Origin: a virus
Taxonomy: Duplodnaviria > Heunggongvirae > Uroviricota > Caudoviricetes
Reading direction: 5' to 3' (one strand)
DNA: 21,533 nucleotides
Virus record (IMG/VR): IMGVR_UViG_2713897073_000007
Shown: positions 18,207 to 20,432 of the stretch, piece by piece
How positions within the stretch are numbered: position 1 is the stretch's first letter
How the letters are laid out: the number at the start of each line of letters is the position of its first letter
The notes under the pieces: generated by a model
The model's input: the letters and a program-made list of their open reading frames with translations, nothing else
Told to the model about the DNA's origin: nothing
The model's database searches: none
Position numbers and translations under genes: made by a program

Positions 18207-18241
18207 GTTTTCTTATTTAATCGTGTGTTTTATTTGTGCTG

Positions 18242-18355
18242 TTATTCTTCAGTGAAAAAACGCTCAATCTTTTTTACTGAATGAATAATTCGCATAATCC
18301 CAATAGCGCAGGCCACCGAAATAATCAGAACAAGCCATGAGATAAATATACTCAT
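18242..18355 (-). CDS. Small hydrophobic peptide (37 aa, MSIFISWLVLIISVACAIGIMRIIHSVKKIERFFTEE), not in the ORF track
   Basis: Hand translation; ATG overlaps the stop of the upstream 81-aa gene in an ATGA arrangement; one predicted transmembrane helix followed by a basic/acidic tail; AT-rich. Confidence 0.4.
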   Translation of the reverse strand: MSIFISWLVLIISVACAIGIMRIIHSVKKIERFFTEE

Positions 18356-18605: not shown

Positions 18606-18893
18606 TTAATCTGCTTTCTGTATTTCAGCTTCTGAATCCATACAAATAATTTCGATATAGGGTTCATCGCCATTAACCTGGCGTGCCTTTTCAGCTTCGC
18701 TAATGATTTCTCGTACGGTCTGGTACGGAAGTTCCACAAGCAGCCGTGTGCCGTTCAGATAAATGTAAGTGGCTTCGGCGGCTCCGTTTTTACCCGCCGG
18801 AGTCACTCCATCAATAGCGGATGCGCGTAATAACAGTTCACCGCGAAAATCAATAAAACGGATAAATACACCTTGTGCATGCTCTTTGGTCAT
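18606..18893 (-). CDS. Hypothetical early-operon protein (about 95 aa)
   Basis: ORF-track ORF 18606..19007; preferred start at the Met of MTKEHAQGVF, which avoids overlap with the upstream gene. Confidence 0.5.
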   Translation of the reverse strand: MTKEHAQGVFIRFIDFRGELLLRASAIDGVTPAGKNGAAEATYIYLNGTRLLVELPYQTVREIISEAEKARQVNGDEPYIEIICMDSEAEIQKAD

Positions 18894-18903
18894 AAAGCAC
18901 CTG

Positions 18904-19245
18904 TTATAAATCAGCCTGTTTAATAAAACTTTGCCCGCGAAGCAGACGATCAACCGTGCGAAGTGCTTCGTATAATGTGAAATCCTGCCCGAACTGATTG
19001 TCGCCACTGCTTAGAGCAAAAATGCGGTTTCCGGTAAACGGATTGCGTGGGCATTTGTGGATCACGATTCCAGCTTTCTCAATCAGCCAGGCATGCTCGC
19101 CGATTTGTTTTACTGGGTAGCCATCCGGCGTTGCGTGTGTATCACTCAGGCTGTAGCGGATGTTGCTGCGTGATGCACTGGTAGCAAAACGGTTAGCGTG
19201 GCGTTCTGCACCATTGCGAAAGCGTGAATTACGTTGCTGTTTCAT
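18904..19245 (-). CDS. Hypothetical early-operon protein (113 aa)
   Basis: ORF-track ORF; basic N-terminus; function unassigned. Confidence 0.5.
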   Translation of the reverse strand: MKQQRNSRFRNGAERHANRFATSASRSNIRYSLSDTHATPDGYPVKQIGEHAWLIEKAGIVIHKCPRNPFTGNRIFALSSGDNQFGQDFTLYEALRTVDRLLRGQSFIKQADL

Positions 19246-19404
19246 GTTAAAGACTCTGTACAGATTTAATTATTCCGGCATAGAGGCCGAACTCAAAATA
19301 TTTGCGATTAAATCGTATCGCATTGTTTTCACGTTTTGCGGACTGCTGGTTCATTTTCGTTTGCCTCCGCACATGAGAATTGCGCCGCTTAAGAGGTAAC
19401 CGAA

Positions 19405-19429
19405 GTTAATTGATAGTATTACAATTAAC
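19405..19429. promoter_or_regulatory. Perfect palindrome GTTAATTG - 9 nt - CAATTAAC in the 250-bp gap inside the early operon (candidate operator or protein-binding site)
   Basis: Read from sequence; AT-rich; about 160 nt upstream of the 113-aa gene start on the minus strand. Confidence 0.35.
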
Positions 19430-19497
19430 ATAAGGTCCAATTTGTCCATGCCACACATAATTACCCTCATTGCAGTAGTTGTGGGTTGTCAGGTTTC

Positions 19498-19704
19498 TCA
19501 CCCGATAAACCAGATAACAAACGCTATAAACATCGCCCCAATAGCTGCCGGGAAAAGTCCTTTGGTATAAGCGGCGATATATTCAATGCTGAGTTCAATA
19601 AAGCGTTCTTCATGTCCCGTTAACTTGCGAAACAAATAGATCTCTATTACGCCTATCTCAATAAAAACAAGGGTCAGAATGGCGCTGATGATATGGCTGG
19701 TCAT
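19498..19704 (-). CDS. Small membrane protein (68 aa, two predicted transmembrane helices), second gene of the early operon
   Basis: Hydrophobic segments IISAILTLVFIEIGVIEIYLF and FPAAIGAMFIAFVIWFIG; starts 6 nt after the cox stop. Confidence 0.55.
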   Translation of the reverse strand: MTSHIISAILTLVFIEIGVIEIYLFRKLTGHEERFIELSIEYIAAYTKGLFPAAIGAMFIAFVIWFIG

Positions 19705-19710
19705 TTATGA

Positions 19711-19998
19711 CTAAAGTCCCAGCCACAACAACCATGCGTCGCGGCGTTCTTTCGGTTGCTCAAAAAACGCTTTGCGCATGCCTTCGTTAAATGCTGGCAG
19801 ATATACCCAGTTTTCTGATGCACGCGTCTTCACTGAACCTGGTTTCACAAAGTCAATCGTTGGTAACTTTGCAGCGTCAATCATGGTTCTGACGGTTGAT
19901 TCTTTGCGACCAATCATCTTGGCAAATAGTTGATATGGCACCGCTTCAAGTGGATATGGTGCTACCTGAATGAACCCCTCAAGCTCTGATTCGCTCAT
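19711..19998 (-). CDS. cox: Cox-family excisionase / early-promoter repressor
   Basis: ...WVYLPAFNEGMRKAFFEQPKERRDAWLLWLGL matches recalled P2 Cox (...YWVYLPAWNNGLKLAYESRPKEIRDGWLMWLGL); divergent from the C repressor gene; SD GGGAGA 8 nt upstream. Confidence 0.85.
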   Translation of the reverse strand: MSESELEGFIQVAPYPLEAVPYQLFAKMIGRKESTVRTMIDAAKLPTIDFVKPGSVKTRASENWVYLPAFNEGMRKAFFEQPKERRDAWLLWLGL

Positions 19999-20111
19999 TG
20001 TGGTAATCTCCCTAATTCGTTCGAATGGCTCAAAATGGCTTATATCGGCTTATTTGAGTGTTTTTATGTTTGTGCCCGATGTGGCATGTTGCGATGGAGG
20101 ATATGCCCGAT
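19999..20111. promoter_or_regulatory. C/cox divergent switch region (expected Pe and Pc promoters with operators); contains short direct repeats and two copies of a 15-16 bp near-palindromic element
   Basis: Position between divergent cox and C starts. Direct repeats AATGGCT (x2) and GGCTTAT (x2) at 20024-20053; elements TGCCCGATGTGGCAT (about 20073-20087) and TGCCCGATATGGCAT (about 20104-20118), the second overlapping the C start codon region. No promoter hexamers could be assigned with confidence. Confidence 0.45.
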
Positions 20112-20432
20112 ATGGCATCTTTGTCAAGCATGGGTGAAAAATTTCGCCTGATTCGTGAAGCAGAAGGTATGACCCGCCAGGAGTTTGCGGATTGTGTTGG
20201 GCTGCCTTATGGGACGGTAACTAACTATGAGGTGAGGGGGAAGCAAGTAACAGAGGGTGCCTTACTTAAGGTTACGAAACACCCTAAATTTAAGAAGTAT
20301 GCTTATTGGTTATTAACAGATGAAACGATGCCGGAGGTCGGGCAAATTTCTCCGGCTCTCTCTCTTGATGGTTCCTGCAATTCGGAGGGAGATCGCGTTT
20401 CAACCGAAACAATCCAAAAATTATCCCGCTGA
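20112..20432 (+). CDS. C: Immunity repressor C (P2 C family, helix-turn-helix)
   Basis: ORF-track ORF 20058..20432; ...GLPYGTVTNYEVRGK...KYAYWLLTDETMPEVGQISPALS matches recalled P2 C (...GVPYGTLSYYESGR...KYTLWFMTNQIAPESGQIAPALA). Preferred start MASLSS at about 20112, with GGAGG 11 nt upstream; alternative starts at 20094 and 20103. Confidence 0.8.
   Translation: MASLSSMGEKFRLIREAEGMTRQEFADCVGLPYGTVTNYEVRGKQVTEGALLKVTKHPKFKKYAYWLLTDETMPEVGQISPALSLDGSCNSEGDRVSTETIQKLSR

What the first reader, a model, noticed from the sequence alone, without database searches (positions are those of the whole stretch)
19246..19497. 250-bp gap inside the early operon with a perfect palindrome and a possible 32-aa peptide
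The only sizeable gap in the early operon contains GTTAATTG-N9-CAATTAAC (19405-19429), a good candidate for a dimeric DNA-binding-protein site. Overlapping it on the minus strand is a short ORF (about 19351..19449) encoding a hydrophobic peptide with a KRK tail, but it lacks a convincing ribosome-binding site.
Basis: seen in the sequence. Interest (0 to 1): 0.4.

Follow-up and report, generated by a model that had tools for sequence, protein, structure and literature searches.

The report
Two tiny genes, not a gap
The supposed 250-bp gap in this P2-like prophage's early operon is filled by two back-to-back 35-codon genes, one encoding a conserved single-helix membrane peptide, and the "perfect palindrome" is a non-conserved by-product of that peptide's Leu/Ile/Asn codons, so the finding is ordinary.

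Summary
The sequence features are real. GTTAATTG-N9-CAATTAAC sits at 19405-19429, and a hydrophobic KRK-tailed ORF overlaps it on the minus strand. The "gap", however, is an artefact of an ORF-length cut-off.

It holds two tightly packed genes:
- ORF-a (19351..19458, 35 aa): SD GAGGG lies 5 nt upstream.
- ORF-b (19247..19354, 35 aa): joined to ORF-a by an ATGA overlap and to DUF4761 by TAA-C-ATG.

Only 39 nt (19459-19497) is non-coding.

ORF-a occurs in three diverged clades at about 67% nucleotide identity. All keep exactly 35 codons, the start, the SD and the ATGA overlap. dN/dS is 0.22-0.29. It is predicted as one transmembrane helix.

The palindrome is absent from the other two clades (4/8 complementary). 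It lies inside codons 10-18, has no other copies, and arises by chance in 4-8% of controls. No promoter, terminator, Rfam RNA or antisense promoter was found above chance.

Both ORFs are already deposited as "hypothetical protein" in phage and GenBank records; RefSeq PGAP omits them. The slot between the 68-aa membrane-protein gene and DUF4761 is a variable accessory slot. Function is unknown; a small inner-membrane accessory peptide expressed early is most likely. Interest is low.

The parts
19351..19458 (-). ORF-a: 35-aa small membrane peptide gene, MCGMDKLDLMLIVILSINFGYLLSGAILMCGGKRK, including the TGA stop at 19353-19351
   Evidence: Annotated as a CDS in NC_049391 (YP_009877431.1) and PV340564. 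A called gene in 10,593 blocks of public assemblies. Three diverged clades keep 35 codons, the start and the stop; dN/dS 0.22-0.29, Fisher p=0.002. AF2 gives a single helix at residues 4-31, pLDDT 82. Best 19-residue KD window 2.13.
19464..19468 (-). Shine-Dalgarno GAGGG for ORF-a, 5 nt upstream of ATG 19458
   Evidence: Read from the sequence. Relatives have AAGGAGA at the equivalent place although the rest of the spacer has diverged.
19459..19497 (-). The only truly non-coding stretch: a 39-nt spacer between the stop of the 68-aa gene and ORF-a. An IS3-family element is inserted here in one lineage.
19405..19429 (.). Perfect inverted repeat GTTAATTG-N9-CAATTAAC, lying inside ORF-a from the 3rd base of codon 10 to codon 18 (M-L-I-V-I-L-S-I-N)
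   Evidence: Not conserved in the L055/L051/L053/L094 clades. Chance 4-8.5%.
19247..19354 (-). ORF-b: 35-aa basic peptide gene, MNQQSAKRENNAIRFNRKYFEFGLYAGIIKSVQSL. Its ATG overlaps the ORF-a stop (ATGA). Its stop TAA lies 1 nt before the DUF4761 ATG.
   Evidence: Annotated in NC_049391 (YP_009877432.1) and PV340564. Core [FL][RN]R[KN]YFExGxYAG is conserved in L055 and Shae-type relatives at 52-71% nt identity. pS 0.63-0.87 against pN 0.21-0.43 in this frame only. Fused in frame to DUF4761 in P0005/P0007.
19364..19368 (-). GGAGG inside the last codons of ORF-a (G31-G32), 9 nt upstream of the ORF-b ATG: probable SD for the coupled downstream gene
   Evidence: Read from the sequence. Relatives keep GGGG(A/T) at this place.
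19243..19252 (-). Junction CTT TAA C ATG between ORF-b and DUF4761: a stop/start coupling site. The heptamer resembles the prfB +1 frameshift site.
   Evidence: Read from the sequence. The variant CTTTAAA exists.
19498..19704 (-). Upstream neighbour: 68-aa protein with two hydrophobic segments (phrog_14475, function unknown). It precedes ORF-a in every locus seen.
18904..19245 (-). Downstream neighbour: DUF4761 protein, 113 aa
   Evidence: PF15958, E=2e-69.

Best explanation
The window is a P2-like (Peduoviridae, Xuanwuvirus P88_4B11-type) prophage. The 19246-19497 interval of its leftward early (Pe) operon is not a regulatory gap.

**ORF-a (19351..19458)**
- Shown: it makes a 35-aa peptide that is essentially one transmembrane helix, with an acidic N-terminus (MCGMDKLD), a hydrophobic core carrying a conserved LS-x-NFG-x-LL face, and a basic tail K(R/Q)K.
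- Inferred: it is transcribed from Pe and translated from its own SD early after infection or induction. It inserts in the inner membrane N-out/C-in (positive-inside rule). It acts there through helix-helix contacts, either with the 68-aa membrane protein encoded just upstream or with a host membrane protein.
- It is accessory and non-essential, because sister phages (P88, Chuche, Shae_phiSM) lack it.

**ORF-b (19247..19354)**
- A 35-aa basic peptide coupled by ATGA to ORF-a and by TAA-C-ATG to DUF4761.
- In some relatives it is simply the N-terminal extension of DUF4761, so it probably works with that protein.

**Palindrome**
- It is an incidental consequence of AT-rich Leu/Ile/Asn codons (TTA ATT G.. 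/ ..C AAT TAA C) in the window-type allele of ORF-a. It is not a protein-binding site.

**Locus**
- The whole interval between the 68-aa gene and DUF4761 is a variable accessory-gene slot. It is remodelled by recombination at the first ~7 codons (MNKQQ...) of DUF4761.
For: **Identity of the element**
- 99.7% identical to Xuanwuvirus P88_4B11.
- Cox (PF10743), HTH repressor, integrase and Phage_GPA flank the region.
- A Pe-like promoter lies at 20127-20098 on the minus strand.

**Both ORFs are already called as genes**
- Annotated as CDS in two phage records.
- Called in thousands of assemblies, always in the order cox, 68aa, ORF-a, ORF-b, DUF4761.
- Deposited as hypothetical proteins ART17483.1 and ART17484.1.

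**ORF-a coding signature**
- Six DNA variants fall in three clades at 67% nt identity between clades.
- All have 35 codons and the same ATG.
- An SD lies 5-7 nt upstream in a spacer that is otherwise diverged.
- The stop always sits in an ATGA overlap with the next gene.
- Nei-Gojobori pS 0.60-0.63 against pN 0.24-0.28, dN/dS 0.22-0.29, Fisher p=0.002.
- The other frames and the opposite strand carry stops.

**ORF-a is a membrane helix**
- GRAVY 0.98; best 19-residue KD window 2.13.
- AF2 predicts a single helix at residues 4-31, pLDDT 82.

**ORF-b coding signature**
- pS exceeds pN only in its own frame.
- Fused to DUF4761 in P0005 (1217 member sequences) and P0007.

**Palindrome is not functional**
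- Absent from the other clades.
- No extra half-sites.
- Chance 4-8.5%.

**No alternative element**
- Promoter-like sites are not above shuffles, and none lies on the + strand in the gap.
- No Rfam hit.
- RNA-fold z-scores are -1.75 and -1.08.

**Variable slot**
- Intergenic lengths of 23, 87, 128, 157, 252, 580, 748 and 1587 nt occur between the same two flanking genes.
Against: - There is no direct evidence of translation or membrane localisation; everything rests on sequence conservation.
- Only three independent ORF-a clades exist, and dS between them is near saturation. The dN/dS estimate rests on 35 codons.
- ORF-b is weaker. Within the window-type clade 4 of 5 polymorphic sites are non-synonymous, and codon 24 is L/R/S/I. 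One lineage carries a frameshift in it (L024/L048). Its first codons are a duplicate of the DUF4761 start, so it could be a tolerated recombination scar.
- Within the window-type clade the palindrome is invariant, but only 10 sites vary in 252 nt, so this says nothing either way. A clade-specific binding site cannot be excluded by comparison alone.
- The molecular target of ORF-a is a guess.
Confidence: 0.75

Rival explanations
1. The palindrome GTTAATTG-N9-CAATTAAC is an operator for a dimeric DNA-binding protein of the phage (C, Cox or the winged-helix protein) or of the host. It controls an internal promoter or roadblocks early transcription.
For: - Perfect 8+8 inverted repeat with a 17-bp centre-to-centre spacing.
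- Occurs in only 4-8.5% of randomised controls.
- Invariant in all 78 window-type loci.
- AT-rich DNA is a common target of nucleoid proteins (general knowledge).
Against: - Lies entirely inside a conserved coding sequence.
- Lost in the two other ORF-a clades, although the peptide is kept.
- The natural M10I allele removes the outer base pair.
- No second copy or half-site enrichment, and none at Pe/Pc.
- The putative C operators are unrelated direct repeats, as in P2.
- No promoter-like site is associated with it.
- Invariance within the clade is uninformative: only 10 variable sites in 252 nt.
Confidence: 0.07
2. ORF-a is the toxin of a type I toxin-antitoxin-like module: a small hydrophobic, basic-tailed, membrane-depolarising peptide held in check by an antisense RNA.
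For: - Its size (35 aa), single transmembrane helix and basic C-terminal tail resemble Ldr/TisB/ShoB-class toxins (resemblance from general knowledge).
- An IS insertion just upstream in one lineage would be compatible with counter-selection.
Against: - No + strand promoter-like site in or near the ORF.
- No Rfam antitoxin or toxin-leader family.
- No Pfam, NCBIfam or PADLOC toxin family hit.
- No long structured 5' UTR: the spacer is 39 nt and the fold z-score is -1.75.
- The gene is translationally coupled inside a long operon rather than being a stand-alone cassette.
Confidence: 0.06
3. ORF-a is real, but ORF-b is not a functional gene. It is a recombination scar: a duplicated DUF4761 start codon region plus inserted DNA. 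It is translated only incidentally and serves at most to couple ribosomes from ORF-a to DUF4761.
For: - ORF-b starts with the same MN(K/Q)Q codons as DUF4761 in L051/L053/L054. Every insert in the slot starts that way.
- Beyond residue 7 there is no similarity to DUF4761.
- L051/L053/L094 lack ORF-b, and ORF-a is coupled directly to DUF4761.
- Within-clade polymorphism is mostly non-synonymous.
- There is a frameshifted allele.
Against: - At deeper divergence the frame shows pS 0.63-0.87 against pN 0.21-0.43, with a conserved RRxYFExGxYAG core. The other frames show no such contrast.
- The ORF is kept open, separate or fused, in window, L055 and Shae-type phages.
Confidence: 0.25
4. The interval carries an internal promoter or terminator that splits the early operon (cox and the membrane genes versus DUF4761 and the replication genes).
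For: - A sense-strand promoter-like site TTGAGT-16-AATAAT lies at 19296-19269, 24 nt upstream of the DUF4761 ATG.
- A weak hairpin plus T-run lies at 19322-19303.
- P2 has a putative terminator inside its early operon after B.
Against: - Promoter-like sites in the region number 2, against 3.7 expected from shuffles.
- The -10 is not kept in Shae (GGAAGT) and the hairpin is not kept in L055.
- The hairpin has only 3 G-C pairs and an interrupted T-run.
Confidence: 0.08

Closest known systems
Small single-pass inner-membrane proteins of enterobacteria and their phages (e.g. AcrZ, MgrB, MgtS; small membrane ORFs of phage early operons)
   Same: - Fewer than 50 aa, with one transmembrane helix and a basic cytoplasmic tail.
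- Has its own SD.
- Overlooked by standard annotation: PGAP omits it.
- Conserved polar residues (Ser16, Asn18, Gly20) inside the helix suggest helix-helix binding to a larger membrane protein.
   Different: - No sequence relationship to any curated family.
- Encoded in a repressor-controlled lytic operon, not a stress regulon.
- The partner is unknown.
Type I toxins (Ldr, TisB, ShoB, Ibs, Hok)
   Same: About 30-35 aa hydrophobic helix with a Lys/Arg tail.
   Different: - No antisense RNA promoter, no leader structure and no family match.
- Embedded and translationally coupled in an operon.
P2 Orf78 (the small ORF directly after cox in phage P2)
   Same: A small, uncharacterised ORF in the same part of the early operon, between cox and the replication genes. 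It overlaps the next gene.
   Different: P2 Orf78 is 56 aa, highly basic and not hydrophobic. There is no sequence similarity.
P2-type operators (C sites O1/O2; Cox boxes)
   Different: - P2 C binds direct repeats flanking the -10 of Pe. This phage has an analogous direct repeat at 20073-20121.
- The palindrome has a different sequence and symmetry and lies about 650 bp into the operon.
Phage 'moron'/accessory-gene slots
   Same: The same pair of flanking genes encloses 23 to 1587 nt in different relatives. The inserts include oppositely oriented genes and an IS element.
   Different: ORF-a and ORF-b have no promoter or terminator of their own. They ride on the early operon by translational coupling.

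Membership tests
Genuine protein-coding small ORF (ORF-a) | Start codon with a Shine-Dalgarno at proper spacing, conserved in relatives | tested here: met
   GAGGG-5 nt-ATG in the window; AAGGAGA-6/7 nt-ATG in L051, L053, L055 and L094.
Genuine protein-coding small ORF (ORF-a) | Reading frame and length preserved across diverged sequences; excess of synonymous change | tested here: met
   35 codons in all 6 DNA variants at 67% nt identity. dN/dS 0.22-0.29, Fisher p=0.002. Stops in the other frames.
Genuine protein-coding small ORF (ORF-a) | Direct evidence of translation (Ribo-seq, mass spectrometry, tagging) | not testable with these tools
   No paper in the library contains the peptide sequences.
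Genuine protein-coding small ORF (ORF-b) | Frame-specific purifying selection across relatives | tested here: inconclusive
   Between clades pS exceeds pN in this frame only. Within the clade changes are mostly non-synonymous, and one allele is frameshifted.
Operator / dimeric-regulator binding site | Inverted repeat conserved in related elements that keep the same regulators | tested here: not met
   Relatives have CTTAATCA...CAGTTAAC (4/8 complementary). No inverted repeat of 6 nt or more at that place.
Operator / dimeric-regulator binding site | Located in non-coding DNA next to a promoter; further copies of the half-site | tested here: not met
   Inside ORF-a codons 10-18. Promoter scan not above shuffles. 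Half-site 22 observed against 19.5 expected, none at Pe/Pc.
Operator / dimeric-regulator binding site | Statistically unexpected symmetry | tested here: inconclusive
   8.5% of dinucleotide shuffles and 4.0% of synonymous recodings give an equal or better inverted repeat.
Operator / dimeric-regulator binding site | Specific protein binding | not testable with these tools
   Needs EMSA or footprinting.
Type I toxin-antitoxin | Small hydrophobic membrane peptide | tested here: met
Type I toxin-antitoxin | Antisense or divergent sRNA gene with its own promoter; toxin with its own promoter and structured leader | tested here: not met
   No + strand promoter-like site in the gap. No Rfam family. 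39-nt spacer with an unremarkable fold. Operon-embedded.
Type I toxin-antitoxin | Sequence membership in a known toxin family | tested here: not met
   No Pfam, NCBIfam or PADLOC hit.
prfB-type programmed +1 frameshift (ORF-b into DUF4761) | CUU-stop-C slippery/stop heptamer with the downstream ORF in the +1 frame | tested here: met
   CTT TAA C ATG at 19252-19243. The +1 frame reads Leu-Asn-Met-Lys-Gln into DUF4761.
prfB-type programmed +1 frameshift (ORF-b into DUF4761) | Strong SD-like stimulator about 3 nt upstream of CUU; conservation of the heptamer | tested here: not met
   Only AGAG sits 1 nt upstream. The variant CTTTAAA exists.

The most novel reading that the evidence does not exclude
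Two readings are not excluded.

(a) ORF-a is an early-expressed phage effector. It binds a host inner-membrane protein, or the phage's own 68-aa membrane protein, through its conserved Ser16-x-Asn18-Phe-Gly20 helix face. It would thereby alter the envelope (exclusion, anti-defence or host takeover). It would be the founding member of an uncurated small-protein family carried by about 4% of complete E. coli genomes.

(b) The CUU-UAA-C junction allows low-level RF2-type +1 frameshifting. This would produce the ORF-b::DUF4761 fusion in window-type phages. Shae-type phages encode that same fusion directly.
Probability: 0.1. Interest if true: 0.45.

Novelty: new member of a known kind. Interest (0 to 1): 0.15.

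Why it matters
- **Annotation.** An apparent regulatory gap in a very common E. coli prophage is coding sequence. The full interval is present in 234 of 5426 complete genomes, and the exact peptide occurs in more than 10,000 assembly blocks. RefSeq's pipeline leaves it blank, while phage submitters and the gene calls behind the public assembly collection include it.
- **Biology.** The finding adds one conserved but uncharacterised 35-aa membrane peptide, and a probable 35-aa partner of DUF4761, to the list of phage small proteins worth testing.
- **Evolution.** It shows a recombination-prone accessory slot at the 5' end of DUF4761.
- **Limits.** It does not reveal a new regulatory mechanism.

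Tried and rejected
- **Family searches.** ORF-a and ORF-b gave no hit in Pfam, PHROGs, NCBIfam or PADLOC.
- **Exhaustive phmmer of ORF-a** against 1.84 billion representatives found one true relative and one spurious hit in a 2121-aa protein.
- **Length limits.** The search for homologous proteins and the search for related loci refuse queries under 40 aa. I worked around this with a concatenated ORF-a+ORF-b query. It returned only two odd variants, a fused 70-aa form and a stop-codon read-through form.
- **GTDB species representatives.** No ORF-a DNA pattern and no relative of the 68-aa protein.
- **tblastn of ORF-a in phages.** Only the same three records, plus a chance hit in a Bordetella phage protease.
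- **Plasmids.** One near-identical copy, unannotated.
- **RNA.** The Rfam E-value scan was empty. RNA folding of both strands was not significantly stable.
- **ORF-b as a diverged duplicate of the DUF4761 N-terminus.** Rejected beyond the first 7 residues (shuffle p 0.14-0.60).
- **Literature.** Searches for Xuanwuvirus, small membrane proteins of the P2-like early operon, and the peptide strings found nothing relevant.
- **P2 Orf78 as a homologue.** Rejected: it is basic and soluble.
- **Within-clade polymorphism as a test of the palindrome.** Too few variable sites.
Full report
**What the window is**

The interval lies in a P2-like prophage. The 321 bases around it are 99.7% identical to Xuanwuvirus P88_4B11 (Peduoviridae). 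The neighbours, in order, are:
- an integrase (20514.., +);
- an HTH repressor of the C type (+, ending at 20432);
- a Cox protein (19711..19998, -; PF10743, E=1e-22);
- a 68-aa protein with two hydrophobic segments (19498..19704, -; phrog_14475, function unknown);
- the "gap";
- a DUF4761 protein (18904..19245, -; PF15958, E=2e-69).

A good sigma-70 match sits at 20127-20098 on the minus strand, upstream of cox (TTGACA-18-TATCCT). It is flanked by an 18-nt direct repeat, TGCCCGATRTGGCATNTT, at 20073-20090 and 20104-20121. This mirrors the P2 arrangement, in which the C operators O1 and O2 are direct repeats around the -10 of Pe.

**Checking the observation**

The palindrome is exactly where stated. 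The arms are 19405-19412 and 19422-19429, 8 nt each, 100% complementary, 9 nt apart. The minus-strand hydrophobic ORF ending GGKRK is also there.

Three parts of the description do not hold.

1. The interval is not empty.
   - Phage records NC_049391 and PV340564 each annotate two 108-nt CDSs in it. These map to window 19351..19458 (ORF-a) and 19247..19354 (ORF-b).
   - Gene calls in public assemblies show the same pair. The exact ORF-a peptide is a called gene in 10,593 blocks of the collection, always in the order cox, 68 aa, 35 aa, 35 aa, DUF4761.
   - Both are deposited as "hypothetical protein" (e.g. ART17483.1 and ART17484.1).
   - RefSeq PGAP leaves the interval blank.
   - ORF-a's stop and ORF-b's start share ATGA. 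ORF-b's TAA lies one base before the DUF4761 ATG. Only 39 nt (19459-19497) is non-coding.
   - An in-frame ATG at 19458 has GAGGG five bases upstream.
3. It is not the only such gap. 18207-18351 is another, and it holds a 37-aa hydrophobic ORF.

**Is the palindrome more than chance?**

- At least one perfect 8-nt inverted repeat with a loop of 20 nt or less appears in 8.5% of dinucleotide-preserving shuffles of the 252 nt.
- One appears in 4.0% of synonymous recodings of the ORF-a peptide using local codon usage.
- The window has about 14 other sites of this class.
- The half-site with up to one mismatch occurs 22 times against 19.5 expected, with none in the Pe/Pc control region.

The palindrome is mildly unusual at best.

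**Relatives and the coding test**

Scans of IMG/VR and metagenome contigs gave 78 loci with the window-type interval (9 distinct sequences) plus two diverged clades of ORF-a:
- L055/L056: MCGLDKMDLFLIITLSVNFGVLLGLAVVMQGYKRK
- L051/L053/L094: MCGLDK(M/V)DLFLII(I/T)LSVNFG(V/M)LLASMIFMRGYKQK

At about 67% nucleotide identity to the window, all of these features are kept:
- exactly 35 codons and the same ATG;
- an SD (AAGGAGA) in an otherwise diverged spacer;
- a stop embedded in ATGA with the following gene.

Nei-Gojobori counts give pS 0.60-0.63 against pN 0.24-0.28, so dN/dS is 0.22-0.29. Synonymous against non-synonymous change gives Fisher p=0.002. The other frames and the opposite strand contain stops. 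This is the signature of a translated gene.

The peptide is hydrophobic (GRAVY 0.98; best 19-residue Kyte-Doolittle window 2.13). AlphaFold2 models it as one helix at residues 4-31 (pLDDT 82). The N-terminus is net acidic and the tail is K(R/Q)K, which by the positive-inside rule predicts N-out/C-in. This topology is an inference. Ser16, Asn18, Phe19 and Gly20 are invariant inside the helix. Polar residues in transmembrane helices typically mediate helix-helix association (established biophysics, not tested here).

**The palindrome in relatives**

In both other clades the corresponding DNA is CTTAATCA-N9-CAGTTAAC. Only 4 of 8 positions are complementary, and no inverted repeat of 6 nt or more exists at that place. 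A natural M10I allele in the window-type clade removes the outer base.

The palindrome spans the third base of codon 10 through codon 18 (M-L-I-V-I-L-S-I-N). It is built from TTA ATT and ATT AAC codons. The peptide is conserved and the symmetry is not. I therefore read the palindrome as incidental.

Within the window-type clade it is invariant. Only 10 of 252 sites vary there, so this carries no weight.

**ORF-b**

- The window sequence is MNQQSAKRENNAIRFNRKYFEFGLYAGIIKSVQSL.
- It aligns without gaps to L055 (MNKQKKNSEPRYTRFRRKYFENGRYAGKVKSV...) and to Shae-type phages (MNKQQRNGKPHNTGLRRNYFENGRYAGEVNRYGVFD-M...).
- At 52-71% nt identity, pS is 0.63-0.87 and pN is 0.21-0.43 in this frame. The two other frames show no such contrast.
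- In Shae_phiSM, L058, P0005 (a cluster of 1217 sequences) and P0007 the same peptide is fused in frame to DUF4761. This suggests a functional link.

The case is weaker than for ORF-a:
- Within the clade 4 of 5 variable sites are non-synonymous, and codon 24 is L/R/S/I.
- L024/L048 carry a 1-nt deletion.
- L051/L053/L094 lack ORF-b altogether, with ORF-a coupled directly to DUF4761.
- ORF-b's first codons, MN(K/Q)Q, equal the DUF4761 start of those phages.
- Beyond residue 7 there is no detectable similarity to DUF4761.

**A variable slot**

Between the same two flanking genes the relatives carry the following:

| Length (nt) | Locus | Content |
|---|---|---|
| 23 | L054 | neither ORF |
| 87 | Chuche | neither ORF |
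| 128 | Shae | ORF-b only |
| 157 | L051, L053 | ORF-a only |
| 252 | window type | both ORFs |
| 580 | L055, L056 | both ORFs (ORF-b extended to 62 aa) plus an oppositely oriented gene |
| 748 | L059 | a 136-aa forward ORF starting MNKQQ plus an oppositely oriented gene; neither ORF-a nor ORF-b |
| 1587 | L010, L052 | an IS3-family element in the 39-nt spacer |

P88 lacks the 68-aa gene as well. Every insert begins MNKQ. Recombination within the first codons of DUF4761 therefore seems to be the junction. ORF-a and ORF-b are accessory cargo, dispensable for the phage type.

**Alternatives examined**

- *Operator.* See above. Not conserved, inside coding sequence, no further copies, and unrelated to the probable C operators.
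- *Internal promoter or terminator.* The region has 2 promoter-like sites against 3.7 expected. The one in the gap (19296-19269, sense strand) and the weak hairpin at 19322-19303 are not conserved in Shae or L055.
- *Structured or known RNA.* No Rfam hit at E<=1. Fold z-scores are -1.75 and -1.08.
- *Type I toxin-antitoxin.* The peptide looks the part. However, there is no antisense promoter-like site, no leader, no family match, and the gene is coupled inside an operon.
- *Defence gene.* No PADLOC hits for ORF-a, ORF-b, the 68-aa protein, DUF4761 or the slot inserts.

**How it most likely works**

Shown:
- two ORFs with SDs and stop/start coupling;
- purifying selection on ORF-a, and more weakly on ORF-b;
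- a single predicted transmembrane helix in ORF-a;
- position in the Pe operon;
- dispensability among relatives.

Inferred:
- on induction or infection, Pe transcription passes cox and the 68-aa gene;
- ribosomes initiate at the ORF-a SD, terminate at UGA within AUGA and reinitiate on ORF-b, helped by GGAGG at 19368-19364 inside ORF-a's last codons;
- they then reinitiate on DUF4761 one base after UAA;
- ORF-a inserts into the inner membrane and acts by helix-helix contact with the phage 68-aa protein or a host membrane protein;
- ORF-b acts with DUF4761.

The actual cellular effect is unknown.

**Comparison with the known**

- ORF-a works like the growing class of bacterial and phage small single-pass membrane proteins.
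- It belongs to no curated family. It has only one detectable relative cluster among 1.84 billion representatives.
- The family is narrow. It was not found in GTDB species representatives.
- It is nonetheless abundant in E. coli: the full interval is in 234 of 5426 complete genomes.
- P2's positional counterpart Orf78 is unrelated.

**Verdict**

The regulatory interpretation is not supported. The peptide interpretation is supported with a corrected start. The finding is ordinary: two already-deposited hypothetical small genes in an accessory slot.

The residual interest lies in the uncharacterised, conserved membrane peptide, and in the speculative RF2-like CUU-UAA-C junction between ORF-b and DUF4761.

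Noticed in passing
window 19243-19252 (minus strand): ORF-b ends CUU UAA C AUG. This heptamer has the form of the prfB (RF2) +1 frameshift site CUU UGA C. A +1 slip would read Leu-Asn-Met... and fuse ORF-b to DUF4761, the same fusion that Shae-type phages encode directly (P0005, P0007). The upstream SD-like stimulator is weak (AGAG, 1 nt away), and a CTTTAAA variant exists.
   Followed up: partly
window 18242-18355 (minus strand): A second sub-threshold ORF sits in another apparent gap (18207-18351) of the early operon. It encodes a 37-aa hydrophobic peptide, MSIFISWLVLIISVACAIGIMRIIHSVKKIERFFTEE, overlapping the DUF4754 gene. It is called 'membrane protein' in phage P88. With it, this operon encodes three small membrane proteins (68, 35 and 37 aa).
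   Followed up: partly
window 20073-20121: An 18-nt direct repeat, TGCCCGATGTGGCATGTT / TGCCCGATATGGCATCTT, spaced 31 nt apart, brackets the -10 of the predicted Pe promoter (-35 at 20127-20122, -10 at 20103-20098). These are probably the C repressor operators, analogous to P2 O1/O2.
   Followed up: partly
window 20024-20043: A tandem 10-nt repeat, AATGGCTCAA / AATGGCTTAT, lies between cox and Pe. It may be a Cox box or a Pc-region element.
   Followed up: no
L010/L052 (IMGVR_UViG_2874920711_000009), equivalent to window ~19484: An IS3-family insertion sequence (two overlapping transposase ORFs; rve and HTH_21 domains) is inserted in the 39-nt spacer just upstream of ORF-a. It separates ORF-a from cox and the 68-aa gene.
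   Followed up: partly
L055/L056 and L059, slot between the 68-aa gene and DUF4761: These larger versions of the slot (580 and 748 nt) carry oppositely oriented small genes. One has a weak, sub-threshold BssS-like match (E=0.006). They share a GC-rich hairpin (GCGCCGGGCATGGCTAAAACCCGGC) before DUF4761. L059 also has a 136-aa forward ORF starting MNKQQ. This looks like a moron-type insertion hotspot whose junction is the first ~7 codons of DUF4761.
   Followed up: partly
P0029, P0063, P0079, P0089 (Salmonella / E. albertii): These 211-aa proteins are fusions of DUF4761 with the product of the next gene downstream (the window 18606..18893 homologue). The two neighbours can therefore also occur as one polypeptide.
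   Followed up: no
L097-L102 (E. coli chromosomes): The prophage is integrated next to pdxB (2-Hacid_dh + DUF3410) in every chromosome inspected.
   Followed up: no
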